From a virus, in the IMG/VR virus record IMGVR_UViG_3300042465_006864, positions 1 to 64,000 of that record: a stretch of 64,000 nt of DNA; one strand, 5' to 3'. The position numbers were made by a program, and so were the translations under genes. The notes beneath the pieces were generated by a model. The model ran no database searches. It had not been told where the DNA came from and saw only the letters and a list, made by a program, of their open reading frames with translations. How positions within the stretch are numbered: position 1 is the stretch's first letter; each line of letters starts with the position of its first letter. Below are positions 24,115-56,146 of the stretch, piece after piece.

Positions 24115-24622
24115 AAATGCCTAAAGTAACAATCATTGGTCAAAACCATCTCTTTCCATGGAAGCTTGGCGACGAGCCTATTTGTGAGGAATTTAAACCA
24201 ATGCCCGAAAAATTACACAAAATAGTTCTTGACAAAGTTCAATACATAATGCAAATTAACTCCACGCAAATTGACGGCAACGAAATATTCATCGACTGTT
24301 ACGTTACCAACAATTTCGACACTGGACGAGTTGCTTTCAAATTGACTTATGAATAACTTTCAAACAATCTCAGCAATAATCATTCTAATTATCCTAGAAA
24401 CAATAAAATAACAATATGGCATACAGCAAATACAGAGTATTCGACAAAAAAAATAACTTCCATCAATCGTATGATGGAGCATTAAAAGGCGCAGAGCAAT
24501 GGGCAAGAGATTGCGCAAAGAAAATCGGCGGCTATGTTTTTCAATATAGCGAGTTCGATTTTGCCAATGGCACGAACCCATTCAAGCTTTACGATTTCGT
24601 AGATCAAGGCAAATCAAAATGA
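24111..24622 (+). other. two small hypothetical CDSs (24111..24356, 24416..24622)
   Basis: Co-oriented ORFs in operon context. Confidence 0.55.
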
Positions 24623-25149
24623 GCGTATATTTCGTAGGCGATCCACACTTGGGTCACAAGAACATCCCTAAATATCGACCATGGGTAAAATCTGTGGAAG
24701 AAAATACGACGATGTTTTGTAGTTATTGGCAGCGCACTATCCGCAAAAATGACACTGTTTACGTCATGGGCGATGCTGCATTTTCTGATGAGGCTTTGGA
24801 GGTTTACAAAAAACTGTGTGGTCGCAAAATCCTTGTAAAAGGAAATCACGATGACTATGTTTCAACAAAACTCCAAGCAGAAGTATTTGATGAAATCTAT
24901 GGCATGTTGTCATACAAGCGAACGTGGCTAACGCACTGTCCTATTCACCCGCTTGAAATGCGAGGTCGAGTAGCAAACATTCACGGACACGTTCACTCCA
25001 AAAGCATTCAAAAGAAAACTTGGTATGGCGCTTGGAAAGATGATCCTCAATACATCAATACGTGCGTCGATCATGTTTACGAAAAAACTGGAGGATATAC
25101 GATCTTTACCCCTCTTGAAGAAATCAAAGCAAAACTAAATATCAAGTGA
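24619..25149 (+). CDS. calcineurin-like metallophosphoesterase
   Basis: GDPHLGH, MGD, KGNHD, THCP, HGHVH motifs. Confidence 0.9.
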   Translation: MSVYFVGDPHLGHKNIPKYRPWVKSVEENTTMFCSYWQRTIRKNDTVYVMGDAAFSDEALEVYKKLCGRKILVKGNHDDYVSTKLQAEVFDEIYGMLSYKRTWLTHCPIHPLEMRGRVANIHGHVHSKSIQKKTWYGAWKDDPQYINTCVDHVYEKTGGYTIFTPLEEIKAKLNIK

Positions 25150-30851: not shown

Positions 30852-31541
30852 TTATTGTTCTCGACTCCATTCACAGCAAGGTAAATGTCTTCCATTTTCA
30901 TCCATTGCATACTCCCAATTGTTATCATCTGTGCTTTCCCAATCGCCATCTATCGGCTCCATATTACAGGAACACTTTCGTGGCACACAGTCGTCACAGG
31001 CGCATTCTCCATTAGGCATATAAACCCATGTAGCTTCTACCTTTTGACAGTATGAACATTTAGCCATATTACTCGTATACGATAATTGTTTTTTCTACAG
31101 GGAATACTTCGGGGATAGAGACTTCATCTTCCCATTCATAAGGCGATTCATCTTGCATTTCGGTTGCGCCAACTCGATAATTGAGCTTGAAAAATTTACC
31201 ATCAGAAATCCGCTTGGCAATTTTTTCATAACAAATTGACCATCGGGTTGTGTCTGTAATCTCTAATGTTACAGTTTCGAATAATTCGTGGTCGCCATAA
31301 GCAATTAGTCTTGCTTCTTTTGCTTTTAGTGTTAATGTTTCTTTCATATTTATTTTGTTTTTAGTTTTTGTTTTAATTGTTTTTTAAGTTCTTTGTTTTC
31401 TTTTCTCAACTTTGCAATTTCATCCGCTGCGCGGGGAATATTTTGACGAATTGTTTCTAACTCATTTTCAATGATTCGAATTGATTGCGACAATTTGTTG
31501 TAATGACGTAAAATATCAAGAATATCAAGGTCTTTTTTCAT
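30852..31541 (-). other. three small hypothetical CDSs (30852..31067 Cys-rich, 31069..31347, 31350..31541)
   Basis: Tightly packed co-oriented ORFs. Confidence 0.55.
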
Positions 31542-32650
31542 AATTCTAAAATCTTCTCCATTGCTTTGCGCACGATTTTATCATCAATGTCACGCTTGTC
31601 AAGCAAAATAAATGCAATCGCAGTCTTCCAATCGCGGAACTCTTCTTGAATTGCCATTGCTTGTTCTTTGCGATTGGAATAATCACGAATAAATAACATC
31701 CTCTGGTTGATATTGTCTACGCACTTTACGAATTTGGCATAGGCATCAGTGATTTCTTGGATAAACGGCTTGCACTTCTCTGCGATTTCATAATCCAAAA
31801 GCGTTTCGATATATTTATAAAAGTCCTTATAATTTGTGAACTTTGGTGATTGCATAAATACATCTAAAACATTATTAATGGTTTTAATTCCCGTTGCTAA
31901 TTTATGAAGTTCACAATATTCGTCTGCCTTAATTTTTTTGAGGATTTGACCATTTGGAGAATATAGAACGACACCCTCCTTACCTTTCCAAGCAGAAACA
32001 TCCATGATACATTCTTCAACAGAATCGTATTGGTATCTATCTGGACGATCAAATTGATATTGAGAAGCGCATATATCTAAATATTTTTGACTATAGTAAC
32101 AGCCTTCTTCATTTGACACTATACCAACTAAAGTTAATTTATACTCATCAGATTCTCTCAATACGATGATATTCGAGGGAGTAGTCCATTCAAAGAGCCA
32201 CGATTGTTCTAGCGCTGATATGCCGTCGAAAGCATCGTTGTTTTTAAAAAATTGCTTATACTTCTCCACCAGCAAATCTATTTCATAACCATTGGGCAGT
32301 AAACGAGCATTCACAGTGCCGCGAGTTCTAATTATCCACTGACCTTTGTATCGAGAAACGATTAAAAGACTACCATCCAACTTGTGTCTCGCTTCAAATT
32401 TCCAACAATCTTTCCATGGTTCAAATGCTGGTTGCTCTCCAAAGTTAGTGAATTTGCGAAATCCTTGGCTGATTACGAAATTATCAAATTTACGCACCAC
32501 ACAAGAACGGAAACGAGCATTTTCATCGTTCCATTTAACACTCATGTCTTTCGGCGTAATGAGCCAACATTCGTCACCAGCGATGACGCAATCTTTGTAA
32601 TTAAATTCTTCTTTGTTTGGTAGTTTCATATTAATAACTGATTTCTCCAA
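31538..32650 (-). CDS. RNA ligase (T4 Rnl1-like)
   Basis: KFTNFGE, motif I KLDGSL, FEW, motif IV EGVV, motif V KIK. Confidence 0.85.
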   Translation of the reverse strand: MEKSVINMKLPNKEEFNYKDCVIAGDECWLITPKDMSVKWNDENARFRSCVVRKFDNFVISQGFRKFTNFGEQPAFEPWKDCWKFEARHKLDGSLLIVSRYKGQWIIRTRGTVNARLLPNGYEIDLLVEKYKQFFKNNDAFDGISALEQSWLFEWTTPSNIIVLRESDEYKLTLVGIVSNEEGCYYSQKYLDICASQYQFDRPDRYQYDSVEECIMDVSAWKGKEGVVLYSPNGQILKKIKADEYCELHKLATGIKTINNVLDVFMQSPKFTNYKDFYKYIETLLDYEIAEKCKPFIQEITDAYAKFVKCVDNINQRMLFIRDYSNRKEQAMAIQEEFRDWKTAIAFILLDKRDIDDKIVRKAMEKILEL

Positions 32651-39770: not shown

Positions 39771-40451
39771 ATGAGCAAAACAATAGCTATCGGAGACATT
39801 CATGGTGAACTCGATCACCTTAAAAATCTTTTCAAAAAACTATCTTTTACTAAAGATGATACCATCGTCTTTCTTGGTGATTACATTGATCGCGGCAAAG
39901 ATAGTAAAGGTGTAATTGATTTTGTTTTGTCTCTTGAGGATAAGTGCAATTTGGTTACTCTGCTGGGGAATCATGAGAGAATGGCTTTGGAATCTATGAA
40001 ATGGTCTAGCGGTCAAATATCTAGCGCACAAATGCAAAAGTCATGGATGATGCATGGAGGCTATGAATGCTTGGAATCTTATGATTGCAAAGCTGTTCGA
40101 GACGGCTATCTCACTAGAGCGTTACATAAAATGCTTGAACTTCATGGTCAATTTTTAAATAATTTAAAACTCACTTACGAAACCGAAAACCACATTTTTG
40201 TTCATGGATTTTTGGCTCACGAACAAGATGTAGAAGATCAGGAAGAGTGGCGATGCATTTGGGACTCATTCAGAGAAATTTATCCACACAAATCTGGCAA
40301 AACTGTTGTTTGTGGTCACTCTATCCAAAGAGGTGGAGTTGTTGATGATGGATTTAGAATTTGTATTGACACGGGATCGTTTTTGCCTGATGGTTACATT
40401 ACAGCAATGGTAATCGACGGACCAAAATATTCTTTCGTCAGCAGCAATTAG
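39771..40451 (+). CDS. Ser/Thr phosphatase-like metallophosphoesterase
   Basis: GDIHG, LGDYIDRG, LGNHE, FVHG, GHS, IDTG. Confidence 0.92.
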   Translation: MSKTIAIGDIHGELDHLKNLFKKLSFTKDDTIVFLGDYIDRGKDSKGVIDFVLSLEDKCNLVTLLGNHERMALESMKWSSGQISSAQMQKSWMMHGGYECLESYDCKAVRDGYLTRALHKMLELHGQFLNNLKLTYETENHIFVHGFLAHEQDVEDQEEWRCIWDSFREIYPHKSGKTVVCGHSIQRGGVVDDGFRICIDTGSFLPDGYITAMVIDGPKYSFVSSN

Positions 40452-40504: not shown

Positions 40505-41591
40505 ATGGGAAAAAAAATAATCAAAACAGCGCAATTTATCACAGTAGCTGCATTCGCAGTCGTAATCGTAACATTCATTCCGAAAGCTTGCACACGACCA
40601 GATAATGCTACAAAATTGCTAAATCAACAAGGATATACTGACATCAAAATCACAGGATGGCGACCAATGATGGCAGGTAAAGATGATTCGGTATCGACTG
40701 GATTTGAAGCAACATCGCCCAGTGGTCAGCGAGTAAGTGGAGCGGTAACAAGTGGATTGTTATTTAAAGGCTCGACCATCAGATTTGATTAATCACTGAC
40801 AAACAAAAAAATGAACACGCGATATACAACAATCGGAACTGATCAAGTGCCGCATATCAAAAAACTAATCAATTGGTTGATTGCGGAAGTAATTTCTGCT
40901 GGTGGAGATGGTGATGCCTTATGGTATTCACGATTTTATTCTGTTGATGAAATCTTTTCTATTCTAAAAGAATGTGATCTTTATGATTTTACTATTGACA
41001 AACAAGATAATCGTATTACATTTGGCACGGGGCAAGAGCAGATAGCATCATTCAAATTGCAGTGTAAACCAAAACCAAAACCTTTATATCCAGCATGGGT
41101 GGACAAATTTTAAAATTATGGAATTCATTAAAGAACACGTAAACAAAGACTGGCTACCAGTCGTCGAAAAATTTCCTAAGATTTTCTTAGAACCATCAGA
41201 GTATGTTATTGATATTTGGGAAAAATACTACAAAGATTTCGTCAAGAAAGAAGATATGGTGAATCTACGCTATGGTTTTGAACATGGTATCGGTTGGAAA
41301 GATATTGTAATCGGCTTTTGTGAAGATTTACAGAAGCTTGCTGAAAAAGCTGCCGCAGAAGGTCACACCTTTCAATACAAAGGATGCATTATTAAAGAAA
41401 AATTTGGCAAATTCACTCCCCAAGGTGATTTGGAAAAAAGTGAGGGTGCATGGGAAATCTATCGCGATGAATATTATGGTATTTGTCGCAAATGGGAAGA
41501 AAAATCCTTGACAGTCTGCGAAGTCTGTGGTAAAGATGGTGAGTTGCGCAGCACAGGATGGTGGAAAACGCGCTGCGATGAACATAACTAA
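40505..41591 (+). other. three hypothetical CDSs (40505..40792 membrane-anchored, 40811..41113, 41118..41591)
   Basis: The last has KEKFG...CEVCGKDG...C; downstream of TTGACA near 40455. Confidence 0.6.
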
Positions 41592-41595
41592 TAAC

Positions 41596-42024
41596 ATGAG
41601 AGAATTAAAATTCCGCATCTGGGACAGACAAGCAAAAGCATGGGCTGAGAACGATTGCTCGCTGCATTGTTTCAGTAATTGGCAGATTGATCCATTCACT
41701 GGCAAACTGACTGATTTTGTTGGTGCAATTGACGGTGATCGTGAAACGCGCTATAATGCAAATCCTGCTCCCGATTATTATTTTCGTGGCAGTGAGATTG
41801 TGAATGAGCCGAGATATGTTCTTGTTCAATTTACTGGCATGAAAGACAAAAATGGAGTAGAGATTTATGAGGGAGACTTTATTTGTTTTAATAGAACAGA
41901 AGGTCTTTATAGTGATCAAAAGTATCCAATTGTTGCGGCAACTCATCCTTATGTTCAAAACCGTTCTCATTTAGGCGAAGTAATTGGCAACAGCTTTGAA
42001 AACCCTGAACTATTAGAAGCATGA
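41596..42024 (+). CDS. YopX-family protein
   Basis: MRELKFRIWD...QFTGMKDKNGVEIYEGD...EVIGNSFENPELL. Confidence 0.9.
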   Translation: MRELKFRIWDRQAKAWAENDCSLHCFSNWQIDPFTGKLTDFVGAIDGDRETRYNANPAPDYYFRGSEIVNEPRYVLVQFTGMKDKNGVEIYEGDFICFNRTEGLYSDQKYPIVAATHPYVQNRSHLGEVIGNSFENPELLEA

Positions 42025-42374
42025 ACAGAGAAATTAAATTTAGAGCTTGGCGCGAAAATAAAATGCATTATAACATTACAACCGCTCATTATGAGCATAA
42101 TGCAATGAGCGGAAGCGGGGGAGATTTGTGGGATTTTGCAGAATGGATGAAATGGAGCAAAGTCATGCAATACACTGGTCTTAAAGACAAGAATGGTGTA
42201 GAGATTTACGAAGGTGATATTCTCAAACACAATCATAAAGTCCAACAGGTTGAATCTAAGTTAGATTGGAACTGCGGATGTTGCGGATTTGTTTATGGAT
42301 ATAACATTGAAGATCCCAATGATATTGAAGTCATCGGCAACATCTTCGAGAACCCTGAACTTTTAAAACATTGA
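42021..42374 (+). CDS. YopX-family protein
   Basis: REIKFRAW...MQYTGLKDKNGVEIYEGDI...EVIGNIFENPELL. Confidence 0.9.
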   Translation: MNREIKFRAWRENKMHYNITTAHYEHNAMSGSGGDLWDFAEWMKWSKVMQYTGLKDKNGVEIYEGDILKHNHKVQQVESKLDWNCGCCGFVYGYNIEDPNDIEVIGNIFENPELLKH

Positions 42375-42799
42375 GAGAAATAAAATTCAGAATTTGGGAT
42401 AATCTAAAAAAAGAGTGGGTGACTAACAAATACATCTGGAGAATGAAAACCGATGTAAACGGTATCGGTGAAATTCATCCACATACATTCTATTGGAAGC
42501 AACATCCACATGGATTGAATTATCAACAATACACTGGTCTGAAAGACAAAAATGGGAAAGACATTTACGAGGGAGATATTGTAAACATTTTAAAAGAGAA
42601 TAAATGTTATCCTGTGAATTTCGGCAATTGTTATGCTTCTGCTGATGACAACTATTGCGGCACAGAGTGTTTTGGATACCATATAGACGGGCAAATTATG
42701 GGATCGCGTGCAAGAAATTGGGGAAATGGAGCATTAATCAGTGAAAATATGGAAGTCATCGGCAACATCTTCGAGAATAGTGAACTTTTAAAACAATGA
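42371..42799 (+). CDS. YopX-family protein
   Basis: REIKFRIWD...QYTGLKDKNGKDIYEGDI...EVIGNIFENSELL. Confidence 0.9.
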   Translation: MREIKFRIWDNLKKEWVTNKYIWRMKTDVNGIGEIHPHTFYWKQHPHGLNYQQYTGLKDKNGKDIYEGDIVNILKENKCYPVNFGNCYASADDNYCGTECFGYHIDGQIMGSRARNWGNGALISENMEVIGNIFENSELLKQ

Positions 42800-43897
42800 C
42801 AGGCAACGAAACAATCACAATTACAATAGAAGACTCCGATAGAAATATTCGCCTATCCACTCGTTATTCATTTTTGAAAGCAGATGGAGCGGTCATCACA
42901 AAAGGAAAATATCACAATTTAGAACTTGACAATCTGATTGAAAGATTTGATAATTATCGAAGACAAAATAGTCAGAAAAATGAGACCCTCTAAACAAAGA
43001 CAAAAAGAAGATTTGGAATTAGTCATCGCTGCGATGCGCAAAAACAACTTCCAACCTTACGAAGAAAAACTAAATCCATTTACTGAAGGAGTTCGCAAAG
43101 AAAGATTCGAGCGATACTATCACCGCGAACATAGAAGCTTTATCATTGCAGACAATAACTGGAAAGATTTATGCGAAGTATATGGATACCCTTACGAAAC
43201 ACCAAAACTATGAAATGGCAAGAATACAAAGAACATATGCGCGAAGAGTGGGAATTCCACAAACGCAATCCTGAACTGTTTTTTGTTTGGGCGGCATACG
43301 CAACAGCGATAATCATCGCTCTTTTCTCTGACAATTAATCAACAAAATGAAGCATAAATTTTATTATTACGAATACTCCGACGATGGTGGGCAAACTTGG
43401 ACAATGGGCGACTATCGCCGCTATTTGATGCCCATCATGGAGTTGGTAAGAGAGTGTCCTTATCCATCTCGCGTACTTAATCAAGATGATGAACAAATCA
43501 GTGAAGAAGAAATCCGCGAAACGCTCGAACATATGAAAACAATGGAAACAATTTTTGAAAAAGATATAATTCGCTGGGAGGAAAATATGAAATGAAACAG
43601 CTAACACAATATCGAAAACACGGCAATGATTTTTTATTGATTAAAAGATCAGGCAACGTAGGACTTTTCCAAGAAAAGAAATACAACAGCTATGAAGTAA
43701 TCACCATTCAATCACACAATGGGCGCGAAATCATGGGCAACGTAATTCCTCCAGCAGAATTTGCTCCTAGCGATGAATCTTGGGGATCAAAAGGATGGAC
43801 ATACACAATCGAAGCTGACGCTTTGAAAAAATTTGACGAATTGTGTGAAATTTACTTGACACCTAAGCAAGCAAAACCTACAATACCTGAGACATGA
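42796..43897 (+). other. run of small hypothetical CDSs
   Basis: 42796..42993, about 42980..43213, 43347..43595, 43592..43897. Confidence 0.55.
43856..43884 (+). promoter_or_regulatory. sigma70-like promoter
   Basis: TTGACA-N17-TACAAT, 9 nt before ATG 43894. Confidence 0.8.
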
Positions 43898-44580
43898 AAG
43901 AAATTACTACAAACTTATTAATCGCGATGGGTGATACTCATGGAAATTGGGGAGCTTGCATCGAAACTCTACAAGAGTATTATATTCGTGATGCTGTCGT
44001 CCTACACGTAGGAGACGTAGGCATCGGCTTTCTCCCTAAAGAAACACAAGAAGACATTTTAAAATCACTCAACTATGAGCTAGCAGAAAGAAATGTTAGA
44101 ATGTTTTGCATCAGAGGAAATCATGATGACCCACAATACTTTTCGGGCGAGTATGAATACTCCAACATTGTTCTTCTTGCTGATTACTCAAAAATGCTAA
44201 TTAACGGCAAAAAGTTTTTGTTTGTTGGTGGGGCGATTAGCATTGATCGCATCATGCGAACTCCTAATAAGTCGTGGTGGTCAGACGAAGTATTTGTTTT
44301 GGATGAGTCTCGCGCCGAAAAGTGTGACGTTCTTATCTCTCATACCGCTCCAAATTGGATTGGTCCAATCGACAAAATTGGAATTGGTTGGTATACAGAG
44401 CGTGATCCCAATTTGTGGGAAGAGTGTTGCGCAGAAAGATTAGCGATGAATCGTTTGATTGAAATCACAGAACCAGATCAACATTTTTGCGGTCATTTCC
44501 ATCGCAGTCAATCAGCAGTAAACGACAAATGCATTAGTCGTATTTTAAATGAGAATGAAATTTGCGAAATAATTTTGTAA
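43894..44580 (+). CDS. calcineurin-like metallophosphoesterase
   Basis: GDTHG, VGDVG, RGNHD, GGAISID, SHTAP, GHFH. Confidence 0.9.
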   Translation: MKEITTNLLIAMGDTHGNWGACIETLQEYYIRDAVVLHVGDVGIGFLPKETQEDILKSLNYELAERNVRMFCIRGNHDDPQYFSGEYEYSNIVLLADYSKMLINGKKFLFVGGAISIDRIMRTPNKSWWSDEVFVLDESRAEKCDVLISHTAPNWIGPIDKIGIGWYTERDPNLWEECCAERLAMNRLIEITEPDQHFCGHFHRSQSAVNDKCISRILNENEICEIIL

Positions 44581-51385: not shown

Positions 51386-51766
51386 ATGACAATCACACAA
51401 CAACTTAAAGTAAAGGAATTCCCATTCATCATCAGAAATTCAAAAGGTCAAGAGGTTTACTGGGAGAACTCCGATGGATTTTGGGTAAAACGTGAATACG
51501 ATTCCAATGGTAATGAGATTTACTTCGAGAACTCTTATGGAAGTTGGGAGAAGCGTGAATACGATTCCGATAGTAATCGGATTTACTTCGAGAAATCTAA
51601 TGGATTTTGGGCAAAAAGTGAATATGATTCTAATGGTAAAGAGATTTACTGGGAGAATTCCGATAGAGAAATCATTGATAATCGTCCCAAGACAGAAATC
51701 CAAAAAGCCATTGAACTTCTCACGAAAGAAGGATTGATCGTAGATGGTAAGATTTTAAAAAACTAA
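51386..51766 (+). CDS. 20-aa repeat protein (YFENSxGxWxKxEYDSxG)
   Basis: About 3.5 tandem 60-bp repeats; duplicate of the next gene. Confidence 0.8.
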   Translation: MTITQQLKVKEFPFIIRNSKGQEVYWENSDGFWVKREYDSNGNEIYFENSYGSWEKREYDSDSNRIYFEKSNGFWAKSEYDSNGKEIYWENSDREIIDNRPKTEIQKAIELLTKEGLIVDGKILKN

Positions 51767-51785
51767 GATACAATCATAACATAAT

Positions 51786-52169
51786 ATGAAAACAATAGCA
51801 CAACAACTTAATGTAAAGGAATTCCCATTCATCATCAGAAATTCAAAAGGTCAAGAGATTTACTGGGAGAACTCAGATGGACGTTGGCATAAACGTGAAT
51901 ACGATTCCAAAGGTAATCAGATTTACTACGAGAACTCTTATGGAAGTTGGGAGAAGCGTGAATACGATTCTAAGGGTAATCAGATTTACTTCGAGAACTC
52001 TAATGGATACTGGGCAAAAAGTGAATACGATTCCAAAGGTAAAGATATTTACTACGAGAACTCTAATGGAACAGTCATTGATAATCGCCCGAAAACAGAA
52101 ATCCAAAAGGCAATCGAACTTTTGACAAAAGAAGGATTGCTGGTAGATGGAAAGATTTTAAAACAATAA
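51786..52169 (+). CDS. 20-aa repeat protein, tandem paralogue
   Basis: Near-identical N- and C-termini to 51386..51766. Confidence 0.8.
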   Translation: MKTIAQQLNVKEFPFIIRNSKGQEIYWENSDGRWHKREYDSKGNQIYYENSYGSWEKREYDSKGNQIYFENSNGYWAKSEYDSKGKDIYYENSNGTVIDNRPKTEIQKAIELLTKEGLLVDGKILKQ

Positions 52170-52735: not shown

Positions 52736-53675
52736 AAATCGGAGACACAATAACATGCATAGACACTTGCTATGCGCAAGAACTTATAGATGGTGGTGAG
52801 TATCGTATTGTCGATATTAACGAACGTGGCAACCTTCAAATCCAAACGATTGAAGATTATCAAACTTTATCCTATTACTACGATCCTGATAGATTTGAAC
52901 TAATCGTTGATGACGAGACGACTATCTCTAATGAGATTGTAGTTGATTTTGGCGGCATCAAGATTAGGCTTTATGATGATCGTTCTGTTTTATTTGGTGG
53001 CTCAGTGCCAACTATCGGATGTTCCGATAAAGAGATTGATAACCTCATTCGCGCTCTTCTCGCTTTTCGCAACGGTGAAACTTATTAAACAATAAATAAA
53101 TAAATAAAATGAATTATACAAACGAACAAATTAAAAAACCATCTCCTAATAGCAACATTAAAGACGTAATGGAAGAGTTGCATCACAACATTATGATAAA
53201 TCGAGAACTTATAGCTATTCTGGAAGACCGAACGCTTCCGATTCGCCTTGAGAGTCCGACAGTAGCTACAACAACTTCTGATAAACCGTACCCTCCTCTT
53301 TCCGCAATCGAAGCATCTATTTGGGATTATAAAGAAACAGTTCAGCGAAACAATAACGCGATAAATCACATTCTTGAAACTTTGCGACTTTAATACATGA
53401 AATTACAAACAGTCGCAGAAGTAGCTGCCATTGAAGGCAGTTGGGACACAAAAGCTTTGCGTATGACAGATCACGCGCAAAAACTCGAAAGTAAATCTCT
53501 TTTGGCGTTGGCGACTCTCAACTTATTAGTGGATGCAGTTGAACAGGCTATTGAGTTTGGCGATTGGAAAGTTGATGGGCGTTGTGATCCTGATATGGTG
53601 CTATCGTGCGCAAGAGACTTACTATTTGACAATGGATATGAAAAAAGTCTTGACACGCTAGCACAAGAAGTGTAA
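52732..53675 (+). other. three small hypothetical CDSs (52732..53088, 53109..53393, 53397..53675)
   Basis: Co-oriented ORFs. Confidence 0.55.
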
Positions 53676-53683
53676 TAATCTTC

Positions 53684-53975
53684 TGGCGCTGACATACCGC
53701 TTAGTATGTCCCTACACTCGCGTTCATTGCATTGAGGGCTAAGATGCACTCCCAGAGGGGTGCATTGACGAAGGCAGCACCAGACTAGGCATAGTTTAAG
53801 AGCCTTACGAACTTGAGCGACCTGAACAGTGGATGCGAGTGTGGGAAACCATAAAAGAACTAGCGCTAACATCAGATAAGCGTACTATGAGCTTACGAAG
53901 GCTAGCTTAAAAATTCGTGGCAAGTAAATGTAGGGAAATTGTCTGGTTGACTGTCGTGAACAGAGCGACTTAAAC
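53684..53975 (+). ncRNA. putative large structured ncRNA (about 290 nt)
   Basis: 19-bp long-range helix, several hairpins and a possible pseudoknot; follows TTGACA (53650) and GTGTAA (53670). Confidence 0.65.
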
Positions 53976-53987
53976 TTTCTAATAAAT

Positions 53988-55826
53988 ATGATTAAAAATA
54001 TATTAGTATATTCTTCCGTTGGAGACATTTGCACATTCTTTCCGATGTGGAAACACGATAAAATTCAATACGCTTTCAATTACTACGGCAACAATACAGA
54101 GCGAAAAGAGCATATTAAATCATGCTGCGACTACTTTAGCCACATAAAAGGCACGAAGTTTAATTTGTTTTCAAAATTATTTGGGACACTGCCTCTATTT
54201 GATTACTATGTATTGCTCGACGACGATCTTAATCTCACAGGCGCAGATATTATGCAAATGGTTGAGAAAATGGACGCTTTAGGCTACGGTGTAGGATCGC
54301 CATCACATTCTCCAGAGGGAAGCATGTCGTGGTCTATCATGAAGACTCAAGACAGCAGCGAATACCGAAGCGTCGATTTTGTTGAAATGACTGGCGTTAT
54401 TTTTAATCAACAAGAAATGAAAAGATTTTTGGATGCTTATACTCCTTACGCCGATCAAATGGTTGGTTTTGGCGTGGATTATATCATTCATAGCGTTTGC
54501 AATAAGCCGTTTGTTATTTTTGACAACGTATCAGTGGTAAATCCAACCAATGAACAAAAGGGAATCAAACAACAAGAAATAGAAACATATTTATCGGGGC
54601 AAAGTGATAGAGATATGTGGGAAAAAGTTCTTGCCGATCCTAACAATAGTTTTGTAGCTTATTCGCCGAAAACAATTAGCCTCAAAAAGAGAAAGACTGT
54701 CCCGAAAGTCAACATTGACAGCTTTTTAAAATCATTAAAAAAGAAAAAAGTACACGCCTTTCAATCTTTAGCGTCAGCTACTAAAAAGCGACTAGAGCAG
54801 CATGGATTGATTGTTGATTATATCAGTAACCAAAGCGGTCATCGCAAACCTGATTCTGATGTTTTAGTTATAGATTTCAATACAGCGTCTTTTGGAAAAG
54901 ATTGCGAGAGCGTTAATCAACACAAATACAAATACAAAAAAATTCTTTTAATAGGTTTTTTGGTTACGGATTACAACGGTCATGATTATAGTGATGACTT
55001 GGCTAAATTACCCCAACACACAATAGTCGAGGCGTTGGATGATTATAGCGATAGATTTTATAGCAAATTTCTATTAGGTCAATTTGTTGGCACACCAGAT
55101 GATGTCACGAATAAAGTCAGTGTTGTTTGCGCTTGCATGAATCGTAACGATGTTTTGCGAGTCAACATAACTTCTTGGCTGCATTTTTCGGAAGTTGGAG
55201 AGATTGTTGTTGTTGATTGGAGCAGCGATCAGCCTTTAGACTATCTAACAACACTAGACCCAAGAATCAAAGTAATAAGAGTAGACGGTCAAAAGCAATT
55301 TAATATATCACAGGCATTTAACTTAGCGATAGATAATGCAAGCTTAGAATACGTATTGAAATTAGACACTGATTACTTTTTAAATCCGTATTATAATTTT
55401 TTTAAACATCATCCAATGAATTCTGAGGTATTTTACGCAGGAAATTGGAATATCGACTCAGAGCTTCCCGCACCTATATTTCAACATTTGGCTGGATTGT
55501 GCTACGTTCAGAGAGATGTGCTAGCGTCAATCAACGGATATAACGAACATTTTTCGGGCTATGGTTATGATGATGCTGATTTACGCATTCGATTACAAAG
55601 TGTTCATGTTGGTAAATTGCTTCCAATTAAATACGATTACAGTATTATGCACATACCTCACGCAAGCTCGCTGAGAATAGCTCACTACATCGACAGTCAA
55701 TACAACGTATCAAACAACAAAGAAACTGCAAAAAACATGGGCATCGCTCCAAACAGAGTAAGATCGTGGACGATAAAAAATACACAAAACCCCAATTATT
55801 TTCTTGCACACGATCCAACTCTGTGA
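53988..55826 (+). CDS. multi-domain glycosyltransferase (GT-A N-terminus plus GT2/GT7C-like C-terminus)
   Basis: LLDDDL and VDFVEM; SVVCACMNR, VVVDWSS, LKLDTD, INGYNEHFSGYGYDDADL. Confidence 0.85.
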   Translation: MIKNILVYSSVGDICTFFPMWKHDKIQYAFNYYGNNTERKEHIKSCCDYFSHIKGTKFNLFSKLFGTLPLFDYYVLLDDDLNLTGADIMQMVEKMDALGYGVGSPSHSPEGSMSWSIMKTQDSSEYRSVDFVEMTGVIFNQQEMKRFLDAYTPYADQMVGFGVDYIIHSVCNKPFVIFDNVSVVNPTNEQKGIKQQEIETYLSGQSDRDMWEKVLADPNNSFVAYSPKTISLKKRKTVPKVNIDSFLKSLKKKKVHAFQSLASATKKRLEQHGLIVDYISNQSGHRKPDSDVLVIDFNTASFGKDCESVNQHKYKYKKILLIGFLVTDYNGHDYSDDLAKLPQHTIVEALDDYSDRFYSKFLLGQFVGTPDDVTNKVSVVCACMNRNDVLRVNITSWLHFSEVGEIVVVDWSSDQPLDYLTTLDPRIKVIRVDGQKQFNISQAFNLAIDNASLEYVLKLDTDYFLNPYYNFFKHHPMNSEVFYAGNWNIDSELPAPIFQHLAGLCYVQRDVLASINGYNEHFSGYGYDDADLRIRLQSVHVGKLLPIKYDYSIMHIPHASSLRIAHYIDSQYNVSNNKETAKNMGIAPNRVRSWTIKNTQNPNYFLAHDPTL

Positions 55827-55855: not shown

Positions 55856-56146
55856 ATGATTAAAAACATTACAGCAGAAGAAATTAAAACAACATACCGC
55901 GACAATCATGGATTCGCATTTGTTTCGGCGCAACCAGTTTCTGACGATGCAATCTATCGACTGGCAGATTCATTGATTCAATTCAACATTGCGACTAAAC
56001 ATCCTATTGTCGTGACACGTTATCAACAAGGCGTGGTTTTTATTTACGATGATTTCGACGCTCCTAAGTTTTTCGCTAAGGCGCAATTTGCAGAGCAGGT
56101 GCTTGGTATTTGCAAAATAGTTCCATTTTTGGAGTATGTGAAGTAA
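55856..56146 (+). CDS. hypothetical protein
   Basis: 96-aa ORF. Confidence 0.6.
   Translation: MIKNITAEEIKTTYRDNHGFAFVSAQPVSDDAIYRLADSLIQFNIATKHPIVVTRYQQGVVFIYDDFDAPKFFAKAQFAEQVLGICKIVPFLEYVK

What the first reader, a model, noticed from the sequence alone, without database searches (positions are those of the whole stretch)
53650..53975. Unassigned highly structured RNA of about 290 nt with its own promoter signals
Seen: a gap with no credible plus-strand ORF, preceded by TTGACA (53650) and GTGTAA (53670). It contains hairpin GACATAC/GTATGTC (53691-53710); a 19-bp helix CCTACACTCGCGTTCATTG (53711-53729) with CAGTGGATGCGAGTGTGGG (53827-53845), whose G-U pairs favour plus-strand RNA; hairpin ATGCACTCC/GGGGTGCAT; closure GGCGCTG/TAGCGCT; a possible pseudoknot ACCAGAC (53779) with GTCTGGT (53941); and an alternative partner TGTAGGG (53929) for CCCTACA. 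I see no RNase P, tmRNA, SRP or group I/II hallmarks. Inference: a novel phage ncRNA or ribozyme, or a conformational switch upstream of the glycosyltransferase.
Basis: partly seen in the sequence, partly recalled or inferred. Interest (0 to 1): 0.75.

Follow-up and report, generated by a model that had tools for sequence, protein, structure and literature searches.

The report
New conserved phage RNA with swappable domain
The gap holds one member of a widespread family of structured phage RNAs that is absent from Rfam, built from a small 5' pseudoknot, a long helix, an unvarying internal loop and a far end that differs completely even between near-identical phages; what it does is not yet known.

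Summary
The + strand of 53676-53987 folds far better than shuffles (z -4.4; minus strand -0.7). I collected about 50 distinct relatives from viral and metagenome contigs. They show a conserved core at 53685-53845:
- a 5' hairpin that is really an H-type pseudoknot with the leader;
- the 19-bp helix P1;
- an invariant asymmetric internal loop (53728-53739 with 53814-53828);
- a distal domain of 21-115 nt with unrelated sequence, even in a phage whose flanks are 94-96% identical.

Covariation is strong: 95.6% of cells paired against 30-41% in slid controls. One junction pair occurs as U-A, A-U or G-C in 42 of 42 sequences.

No Rfam 15 family matches the window or 22 loci of relatives. There is one copy per genome in 6 of 6 phage records. 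The unit is co-oriented with its neighbours and has no terminator of its own. It sometimes starts at a sigma-70-type start site and sometimes abuts a tRNA.

A switch for the glycosyltransferase is unlikely, because that gene is absent in a relative that keeps the RNA.

Best reading: a docking RNA for a conserved partner. This is inferred, not shown.

The parts
53650..53679 (+). Sigma-70-type promoter (-35 at 53650-53655, 18-nt spacer, TG, -10 at 53674-53679). The predicted start lies about 53684-53687, at the first base of the pseudoknot.
   Evidence: 11 of 12 plus TG. The hexamers are kept while spacer and upstream gene differ in L003 and L036. Promoter-like sites lie before the unit in 9 of 47 members against 9 of 175 control regions.
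53685..53710 (+). 5' H-type pseudoknot: stem S1 53685-53688 with 53698-53701; 2-nt loop 53689-53690; stem S2 53691-53697 with 53704-53710; 2-nt loop 53702-53703. It abuts P1 with no spacer.
   Evidence: S2 covaries (helix 1: 5 of 7 pairs change on both sides). S1 has 3 or more pairs in 22 of 23 versions and 4 or more in 17 of 23. The figure for 4 or more is 16.6% in 470 cross-pairings and 10.1% in shuffled leaders. At least seven different complementary pairs of strands occur.
53711..53729 (+). P1, 5' strand (19 nt). Its last two bases (53728-53729) never vary.
53730..53739 (+). 5' half of the invariant internal loop: 2-nt CA bulge (53730-53731), covarying base 53732, then seven unvarying bases.
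   Evidence: The 5' half was identical in all 19 true hits of a scan that asked only for the 3' half.
53740..53813 (+). Variable distal domain (74 nt here, two hairpins). It is 21-115 nt in relatives with unrelated sequences. Its first and last bases form the first pair of its closing stem in most members.
   Evidence: It is 44.6% identical to L002, with 40 gap columns, while the flanks are 91-96% identical. The closing pair is A-U in most and G-C in L071 and L074.
53814..53826 (+). 3' half of the invariant internal loop. Base 53826 pairs with 53732.
   Evidence: that pair is U-A in 27, G-C in 9 and A-U in 6, with none unpaired of 42. In a scan that left five of these positions free, the 7 new true hits changed only the first one, in 2 of the 7.
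53827..53845 (+). P1, 3' strand.
53846..53987 (+). Clade-specific 3' extension, 96.4% identical to L002 and more conserved than the neighbouring ORF (90.0%). It holds small hairpins and a second, weaker promoter-like site (53947-53976) just before the ATG at 53988. No intrinsic terminator.
   Evidence: It is present after the unit in L002, L003 and L036 and in short contigs of four RNA libraries.

Best explanation
WHAT IT IS
The window holds one member of a previously uncatalogued family of phage structured RNAs.

SHOWN
- It is a modular fold on the + strand: a compact 5' pseudoknot that takes in the first transcribed bases, stacked on a long helix P1.
- P1 leads to an asymmetric internal loop of about 28 nucleotides that does not vary.
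- Beyond that loop lies a distal domain that is free to vary and is exchanged wholesale between close relatives.
- It is made from its own sigma-70-type promoter here. In other phages it lies inside operons or next to tRNA genes.
- It runs in the same direction as its neighbours, has no terminator of its own, and occurs once per genome.

INFERRED
- The invariant loop is the working part. It is a docking site for a highly conserved macromolecular partner, most likely a host protein machine such as RNA polymerase, the ribosome or one of its proteins, or an RNA-processing enzyme.
- P1 and the pseudoknot hold the loop in shape and protect the 5' end.
- The distal domain is either decoration or a lineage-specific effector.
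- Whether it acts on its own transcript (as a leader that modifies transcription, processing or stability of what follows) or after release as a stable small RNA is open. I put it at roughly even odds.
For: STRUCTURE
- Fold z is -4.38 on + and -0.70 on -.
- Covariation on 11 sequences: 95.1% of cells paired, 12 pairs changed on both sides against 1-5 in slid controls, and 0 of 500 shuffles reach the covariation score.
- Covariation on 42 sequences: 95.6% paired against 29.7-40.8% slid.

CONSERVATION NOT IMPOSED BY THE SEARCH
- Scans that fixed only one half of the loop, or only the 5' hairpin, returned members with the other parts intact.
- With five loop positions freed, the 16 members already in hand were re-found unchanged. 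The only plausible new member (L094, of 7 new hits) carries one change.

COPY NUMBER, SETTING AND EXPRESSION
- One copy in G000 and one in each of 5 further viral records of 44-83 kb.
- Downstream coding runs on the same strand in 25, on the opposite strand in 3, and is unclear in 17. Upstream the figures are 32, 1 and 11.
- Terminator-like sites follow the unit in 4 of 47 members against 8 of 150 controls.
- Promoter-like sites lie just before the unit in 9 of 47 members against 9 of 175 controls. The -10 ends 5-7 nt before P1 where there is no pseudoknot, and 5 nt before the pseudoknot in the window's clade.
- No protein family is shared by the flanks of the different lineages, so a partner is not encoded next to it.
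- Short contigs (151-357 nt) from RNA libraries of four studies carry the 3' strand of P1 plus the 3' extension of relatives. This is a weak hint of expression only.
Against: - No partner is identified and nothing here tests binding.
- The invariance of the loop would fit a catalytic or ligand-binding core equally well.
- Most members were retrieved with patterns that fix parts of the loop, so more divergent members, which would tell which loop bases pair, are missing.
- The RNA-library contigs may derive from DNA and were found with this stretch.
- The orientation, promoter and terminator counts come from crude scripts of my own, using ORF lengths and consensus matching.
- tRNA genes within about 150 nt were seen in only 5 of 41 loci by ARAGORN, plus one lineage by Rfam.
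- The rapid wholesale exchange of the distal domain is not explained by a simple docking site.
Confidence: 0.5

Rival explanations
1. It is a new class of self-cleaving ribozyme. The invariant loop would be the active site, cutting the transcript to free tRNAs or downstream messages.
For: - About 28 invariant nucleotides are flanked by helices that covary freely, with an optional peripheral domain of any size.
- It is scattered in phage intergenic regions with unrelated neighbours.
- It lies directly before tRNA genes in three lineages.
- From recall rather than any call: a published report describes HDV-like ribozymes next to phage tRNAs.
Against: - No match to any ribozyme family of Rfam, even at E up to 10.
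- All conserved bases lie in a single internal loop. No conserved distal loop, junction or pseudoknot could fold back on it.
- The pseudoknot is absent in about half of the members.
- One copy per genome, whereas small ribozymes often come in several.
Confidence: 0.08
2. It is a riboswitch or conformational switch that controls the gene downstream.
For: - It lies at the 5' end of a transcript in several lineages.
- A ribosome-binding site and start codon follow P1 within 10-35 nt in some members.
- Internal loops can bind small molecules.
- Several neighbours are nucleotide-metabolism genes.
Against: - P1 is 11-19 bp and the window's fold is -100 kcal/mol, too stable for a ligand-driven switch.
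- No conserved expression platform and no terminator.
- Downstream features include tRNAs and unrelated small ORFs.
- The alternative pairings proposed for the window are not conserved.
- The glycosyltransferase gene is absent in L003, which keeps the RNA and its extension.
Confidence: 0.06
3. It is a processing and stability element with no specific partner. The long helix would be an RNase III-type site or a 5' stabiliser, as in the early transcripts of T7-like phages.
For: - A long, nearly continuous helix with an asymmetric loop lies inside operons, co-oriented and without a terminator.
- The 5' end is buried in a pseudoknot.
- The same pseudoknot module stands alone before scaffold and capsid genes in Staphylococcus and Lactobacillus phages.
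Against: - Such sites occur several times per genome and tolerate sequence change. Here there is one copy and about 28 bases that do not change between lineages whose helices have diverged completely.
Confidence: 0.12
4. It is a structured primer or origin transcript for phage DNA replication.
For: - Single copy.
- A strong promoter lies directly before it.
- In 10 of the 24 loci scanned it lies among replication, recombination or nucleotide-metabolism genes: RecT, two SSB, a PDDEXK nuclease with a helicase, DNA polymerase A, AAA_24 and others.
Against: - In the window's own genome the replication genes lie more than 60 kb away.
- In other lineages it lies next to portal or lysis genes.
- The tRNA contexts do not fit.
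- No AT-rich unwinding element was looked for.
Confidence: 0.05
5. It is a chance structure or a remnant with no function.
For: None beyond the absence of any experiment.
Against: - Covariation controls.
- Recurrence in about 50 distinct versions from many samples.
- The non-coding flanks are more conserved than the adjacent ORF.
Confidence: 0.01

Closest known systems
HK022 put RNAs and other cis-acting processive-antitermination RNAs (comparison from recall; no call tested it)
   Same: It is a promoter-proximal, non-coding, structured element. It reads on into heterogeneous downstream genes without a terminator. Conserved unpaired bases sit in a helical frame, as expected for contact with a universally conserved enzyme.
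   Different: No sequence or fold similarity could be tested, and I saw no put model among the Rfam results. Put sites are two short hairpins, not a pseudoknot plus a long helix with a variable three-way domain. Only 9 of 47 members have a promoter-like site just upstream. No terminators to be overridden were identified.
Protein-docking rods such as SRP RNA domain IV, Y RNA (Ro-binding stem) and phi29 pRNA
   Same: A long helix is formed by the two ends of the RNA. Invariant asymmetric internal loops or bulges serve as the recognised site. The distal part is variable or modular. There is a three-way architecture, as in pRNA and in the bacterial Y RNAs (recalled).
   Different: No Rfam hit to SRP, Y_RNA, YrlA-like or pRNA families. 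No Ro/TROVE-like or RtcB-like product among 149 ORFs of the genome by PHROGs. The phage has an ordinary large terminase.
Stable RNAs of unknown function encoded with phage tRNAs (T4 species 1 and 2 RNAs; ROOL and GOLLD near prophage tRNAs; recalled, apart from the Rfam models)
   Same: Phage-borne and non-coding. It is sometimes co-transcribed with tRNAs: a tRNA begins 0-10 nt after the unit in three lineages.
   Different: There is no hit to ROOL or GOLLD. From recall, those RNAs are about 580-800 nt, against a core of about 160 nt here. Most members are not next to a tRNA (5 of 41 loci).
preQ1-I type H-type pseudoknot riboswitches (for the 5' module only)
   Same: Same topology and size: two short stems, a 1-3 nt first loop, and in the group-D lineage (the relatives whose junction pair is G-C) an A-rich third loop.
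   Different: No Rfam hit at E up to 1-10. The short middle loop, which in preQ1-I holds the ligand-pairing base (recalled), is 0-1 nt here in most versions (none more than 2) and is not conserved.

Membership tests
Any curated Rfam 15 family (4227 models, including ROOL, GOLLD, 6S, tmRNA, RNase P, SRP, group I/II introns, hammerhead, twister, twister-sister, pistol, hatchet, HDV-like and the riboswitch classes) | Score at or near the family's gathering threshold over the element | tested here: not met
   Whole window at gathering thresholds: only 8 tRNAs, elsewhere in the window. Window 53550-54100 at E up to 10: one noise hit, 12.6 bits against a threshold of 48. Twenty member loci at E up to 10: nothing over the element.
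tRNA / tmRNA | Cloverleaf recognised by ARAGORN or the Rfam tRNA model | tested here: not met
   no tRNA or tmRNA at 53650-53987.
Bacterial Y RNA (YrlA-like) with Ro | A tRNA-like domain on a Ro-binding stem, with a gene for Ro (TROVE) nearby | tested here: not met
   No Rfam hit. No Ro-like product among 149 ORFs of 90 aa or more (PHROGs only, shorter ORFs not scanned). A T-arm-like hairpin occurs only in the extra tandem unit of L036.
Box C/D-type kink-turn | A regular stem, then a 3-nt bulge directly followed by tandem sheared G-A pairs | tested here: not met
   The covarying pair 53732-53826 leaves a 2-nt bulge, one Watson-Crick pair and a single base before the candidate G-A step. That is not the canonical layout. 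Non-canonical variants cannot be judged from sequence.
RNase III processing signals of T7-type early transcripts | Several sites per genome between cistrons, with weak sequence constraint | tested here: not met
   One copy in each of 6 of 6 records, and an invariant loop.
Riboswitch (generic) | An aptamer followed by an expression platform (terminator or sequestered ribosome-binding site), with functionally coherent downstream genes | tested here: not met
   Terminator-like sites in 4 of 47 members against 8 of 150 controls. Downstream genes are heterogeneous and sometimes tRNAs. Ligand binding itself is not testable here.
Self-cleaving ribozyme (generic) | Site-specific self-scission | not testable with these tools
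   Contigs cannot show RNA ends.
Processive antitermination RNA (put-like) | Acts in cis on the transcribing polymerase to read through terminators; promoter-proximal | tested here: inconclusive
   A promoter-like site lies directly upstream in 9 of 47 members against 9 of 175 controls. Action on polymerase is not testable.

The most novel reading that the evidence does not exclude
The family is a two-part device: an invariant docking scaffold that plugs into a universally conserved host machine, and a cassette-like distal domain that phages swap by recombination at the invariant loop. The window and L002 have flanks that are 91-96% identical but unrelated distal domains. On this reading the distal domain would be a lineage-specific decoy or effector in a phage-host arms race. 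Two observations would fit an RNA toolkit of translation-apparatus mimics: in one lineage the neighbouring module is a copy of the 23S rRNA L11-binding hairpin, and in another it is a unit carrying a T-arm-like hairpin.
Probability: 0.2. Interest if true: 0.9.

Novelty: categorically new. Interest (0 to 1): 0.78.

Why it matters
New classes of structured RNA with this degree of conservation are rare. Past examples have turned out to be ribozymes, riboswitches or parts of ribonucleoprotein machines.

This one is common in phages of lakes, rivers, wastewater and the sea. It appears in 14 DNA runs holding most of the stretch and in 34 metagenome contigs. It was not found in one representative genome of each of 185,579 prokaryote species, for the size class searched.

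Three features make it a tractable target for biochemistry and cryo-EM, and a possible handle on how phages manipulate conserved host machinery:
- an absolutely conserved loop;
- freely covarying helices;
- a distal domain replaced wholesale between near-identical phages.

Its 5' pseudoknot module also occurs on its own in cultured Staphylococcus and Lactobacillus phages, so that part can be studied in the laboratory now.

Tried and rejected
SEARCHES THAT FOUND NOTHING
- blastn of the gap against 50,697 GenBank phage records: no match. A short member, L010, likewise gave none.
- The genome-contig scan returned one hit (L064). It lies in coding DNA of a MAG, has no helix, and scores 17 bits with the model. 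I count it as chance.
- Papers: none of the 15 papers listed (of 1,418 holding any of the four strings) prints either of the two longer loop strings. The listed hits come from one of the 9-letter strings, in primer-like contexts.
- I read passages only of a catalogue of about 8,500 unnamed candidate RNAs from IMG/VR (PMC10690425).

CHANCE HITS DROPPED
- 8 of 27 stretches.
- 2 of 9 new stretches.
- All 14 new stretches.
- 6 of 7 new stretches.
All lie in coding DNA with no flanking helix.

IDEAS TESTED AND DROPPED
- A conserved protein partner encoded nearby: clustering all ORFs of 70 aa or more from 60 loci gave families only within single phage lineages.
- A first fixed-register test of the pseudoknot gave no signal because the register was wrong, and a second script crashed. 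The flexible test with controls is.
- RNA libraries: contigs cover only 53837-53951. The uncovered parts say nothing.

Its breadth beyond the 93 GenBank records is therefore unknown.

Full report
WHERE IT LIES

The window is the first 64 kb of a complete 133,831-bp virus record with direct terminal repeats. PHROGs on 149 ORFs show a tailed phage with siphovirus-type tail genes, rIIA/rIIB, an Rnl1-like RNA ligase, several phosphoesterases, ThyX, ribonucleotide reductase and its own replication genes. It carries eight tRNA genes in the window. DNA runs that hold the stretch come from lakes and other fresh waters.

The finding sits in the gap between a 92-aa ORF (53397-53675) and a 612-aa ORF (53988-55826). 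The latter has a family-2 glycosyltransferase domain. The only ORF across the gap is an antisense frame with no family match.

Mostly yes. The + strand of 53676-53987 folds to -100.4 kcal/mol with z = -4.38, and 0 of 100 shuffles do as well. The minus strand gives z = -0.70.

The promoter-like site at 53650-53679 matches 11 of 12 consensus positions with a TG. The region as a whole has no excess of such sites. However, this one keeps both hexamers in relatives whose spacer and upstream gene differ.

RELATIVES

GenBank phages hold nothing similar. A near relative found through the glycosyltransferase (L002) gave the key observation:
- The promoter, 5' hairpin and base of the helix are 94% identical to the window.
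- The 3' junction and P1 3' strand are 91% identical.
- The 3' extension is 96% identical.
- The neighbouring ORF is 90% identical.
- The interior 53721-53812 is replaced by an unrelated, longer sequence. The helix is extended by different but again complementary bases.

Pattern scans then brought in many more versions.
- Viral contigs gave 19 of the 27 stretches, 7 further stretches and one. The remaining stretches were chance hits in coding DNA.
- One metagenome scan gave 34 of 34 true hits.
- In all there are about 50 distinct versions.
- The single hit in 185,579 prokaryote species genomes is a chance match without a helix.

ANATOMY OF THE FAMILY

The anatomy comes from alignments A2 and A3. 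In window coordinates:
- P1 (53711-53729 with 53827-53845) is 11-19 bp in the family. It covaries at nearly every position except the two pairs next to the loop.
- After a 2-nt CA bulge comes a pair, 53732 with 53826. It is U-A in 27 sequences, G-C in 9 and A-U in 6, and never unpaired.
- The next seven bases on the 5' side and twelve on the 3' side do not vary.
- The distal domain (53740-53813) is usually two hairpins. It is 21-115 nt long and unrelated in sequence between lineages. A subset shares a first small hairpin. Its closing pair is A-U in most members and G-C in two.

Counts on A3: 95.6% of 700 cells are paired against 29.7-40.8% when partners are slid by 1-3 columns. The covariation score is 0.607 against 0.04-0.16. 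On the 11 viral sequences: 95.1% paired, and 12 pairs changed on both sides against 1-5 in slid controls.

Most members were retrieved with patterns that fix parts of the loop, so its invariance is partly by construction. Three kinds of scan argue that it is real:
- Scans that fixed only one half, or only the 5' hairpin, returned the other parts intact.
- A scan that left five 3'-loop positions free returned one U-to-C change, in two lineages.
- A scan that left five paired-looking loop positions free re-found the 16 known members unchanged. The only plausible new member (L094) carries one change, a G to U.

THE 5' HAIRPIN IS A PSEUDOKNOT

In every lineage that has a hairpin abutting P1, the 3-5 bases that lie one to three bases upstream of the hairpin are complementary to the first bases of its loop. 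In the window these are 53685-53688 with 53698-53701.
- Of 23 distinct versions, 22 have at least 3 such pairs and 17 have at least 4.
- At least seven different complementary pairs of strands occur.
- Under the same search freedom, 16.6% of 470 cross-pairings and 10.1% of shuffled leaders reach 4 pairs.

That helix loses two of seven pairs without compensation in L003 (read from the sequence printed) and has no counterpart outside the window's clade. The pseudoknot is absent from about half of the family, where P1 begins directly.

THE OTHER LONG-RANGE PAIRINGS

The 7-nt pseudoknot and the alternative partner for the start of P1 are in the sequence. With a third segment, they slightly exceed chance: 5 complementary 7-mers against 1.1, reached by 3% of shuffles. 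Three points count against them:
- Two of the three partners lie in the distal domain. That domain is replaced in L002 and L003 while the 3' partner is unchanged.
- The three segments are not collinear as one helix would need.
- The third loses one pair in the relatives.
I see no support for a switch.

CONTEXT

- A covariance model (R1) finds one copy in the window's genome and one in each of five other viral records of 44-83 kb.
- One locus, L036, has an extra tandem unit. It shares the pseudoknot and P1 but has a different interior with a T-arm-like hairpin.
- The unit runs with its neighbours. Downstream coding is on the same strand in 25, opposite in 3 and unclear in 17. Upstream the figures are 32, 1 and 11.
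- It is not followed by terminators: 4 of 47 members against 8 of 150 controls.
- Promoter-like sites lie just before it in 9 of 47 members against 9 of 175 controls. The -10 ends 5-7 nt before P1, or 5 nt before the pseudoknot, so transcription would start at the first base of the structure.
- tRNA genes lie within about 150 nt in 5 of 41 loci by ARAGORN, plus one lineage by Rfam. In three lineages the tRNA begins 0-10 nt after P1.
- The flanking genes are those of early or middle regions: RecT, SSB, nucleases, helicase, DNA polymerase A, ThyX, NAD-salvage and nucleoside enzymes, methylases. There are also three homing-endonuclease-type genes, once portal and head genes, and once a lysozyme.
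- No protein family is shared across lineages.
- In L003 the same RNA with the same extension precedes the homologue of window ORF 55856-56146. The glycosyltransferase gene is absent there, so it is an insertion unrelated to the RNA.

EXPRESSION

Four RNA libraries from four studies each hold one short contig (151-357 nt). Each covers the 3' strand of P1 and the 3' extension (53837-53951). In two of them (X15, X17) the unmatched end shows a relative's loop and helix. These are contigs from runs that were found with this stretch, and DNA carry-over cannot be excluded. I count this as a weak hint only.

WHAT IT IS NOT

- No Rfam 15 family matches the window at gathering thresholds.
- None matches the gap at E up to 10.
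- None lies over the element in 20 member loci.
- None matches the stand-alone pseudoknot loci.

This covers ROOL, GOLLD, 6S, tmRNA, RNase P, SRP, pRNA, group I and II introns, the known self-cleaving ribozymes and the riboswitch classes. The genome shows no reverse transcriptase, Ro-like or RtcB-like gene by PHROGs.

HOW IT MOST LIKELY WORKS (INFERENCE)

The conserved information is confined to one asymmetric internal loop held between two freely covarying helices. This is the signature of a site read by a conserved partner.

Several things argue against a ligand-driven switch: the long, very stable P1, the absence of an expression platform, the single copy and the heterogeneous neighbours. 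The absence of any conserved element that could fold back on the loop argues, less strongly, against a ribozyme.

The lineages share no nearby protein, and the loop is identical in phages of very different size and gene content. The partner is therefore probably a universally conserved host machine, such as RNA polymerase, the ribosome or one of its proteins, or a processing enzyme.

The pseudoknot that swallows the first transcribed bases, stacked on P1, would shield the 5' end.

I cannot tell whether the RNA acts on its own transcript or after release. A put-like leader would fit the promoter-proximal position and the missing terminator. A released stable RNA would fit the tRNA contexts, the single copy and the short RNA contigs.

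The wholesale exchange of the distal domain between near-identical phages remains unexplained. It is the most intriguing feature.

NOVELTY AND CAVEATS

I found the element in no curated family and in none of the papers that I searched. All functional statements are inference. The orientation, promoter, terminator and pseudoknot counts come from simple scripts of my own. The family as collected is biased towards members with an intact loop and a distal domain of 50-80 nt.

Noticed in passing
L020:5901-5946 (-), also in L022 and L024; begins 3 nt after P1 of that lineage's unit: A 46-nt copy of the 23S rRNA GTPase-associated centre hairpin (the L11/thiostrepton site). It matches Rfam LSU_rRNA_bacteria model positions 1098-1144 at 18.2 bits, E 0.0022, with a long run of identical consensus positions. 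This is a phage-borne rRNA-fragment mimic beside the RNA.
   Followed up: partly
L105:1501-1526 (Staphylococcus phage B166), L106:1501-1528 (Lactobacillus phage phiEF-1.1), L109:1201-1226, L107:1201-1227 plus a second copy about 40 nt upstream (crAss-like cr7_1), L108:1201-1226 (Pasteurella phage): The 26-28-nt pseudoknot module of one lineage of the family recurs on its own, at 92-96% identity, in 93 GenBank phage records: 83 Staphylococcus, 7 Lactobacillus, 2 crAss-like and 1 Pasteurella (each E-value is weak, 0.004-0.5). In the three Staphylococcus and Lactobacillus records that I opened (of 90) it lies between the head-morphogenesis (or a hypothetical) gene and the scaffold and major capsid genes. 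In the crAss-like phage it lies before a primase gene. In the Pasteurella phage it lies 94 nt before a tRNA-Lys followed by an HNH gene. It is unannotated or called a predicted promoter, and has no Rfam match. Its stems covary.
   Followed up: partly
L036:311-499 (-): A second unit lies in tandem upstream of the typical one. It has the same pseudoknot and P1 but a different interior that contains a T-arm-like hairpin. A promoter-like site precedes the pair.
   Followed up: partly
L039:568-625 and 996-1124: A 5' half-unit (pseudoknot, P1 5' strand and 5' half of the loop) is followed by unrelated sequence, with no 3' half before the next tRNAs. One of those Rfam tRNA matches spans 129 nt, that is, it carries an insertion.
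   Followed up: no
window 53988-55826 and 55856-56146: The glycosyltransferase ORF and the next ORF begin with the same first five residues. In L003 the RNA is followed directly by the homologue of the second ORF. The glycosyltransferase gene therefore looks like an insertion by recombination at the shared start.
   Followed up: partly
window 51386-51766 and 51786-52169: Two adjacent paralogous ORFs (126 and 127 aa) are built of short repeats of about 23 residues. Neither has a PHROG match.
   Followed up: no
window 31538-32650 (-), 24619-25149, 39771-40451, 43894-44580: An Rnl1-like RNA ligase (phrog_562) and three phosphoesterase-type ORFs lie in a genome with eight tRNA genes in the window. 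Together they could form a tRNA-repair set.
   Followed up: no
window 41527-42799: Three consecutive paralogous ORFs of the same family of unknown function (phrog_98).
   Followed up: no
L061:5941-6420 (-), L058:905-1504, L033:472-1158: Homing-endonuclease-type genes (HNH with AP2; HNH; NUMOD3 with HTH) lie 130-260 nt downstream of the unit in three unrelated lineages. Such genes often settle beside highly conserved targets (recalled, not tested here).
   Followed up: no
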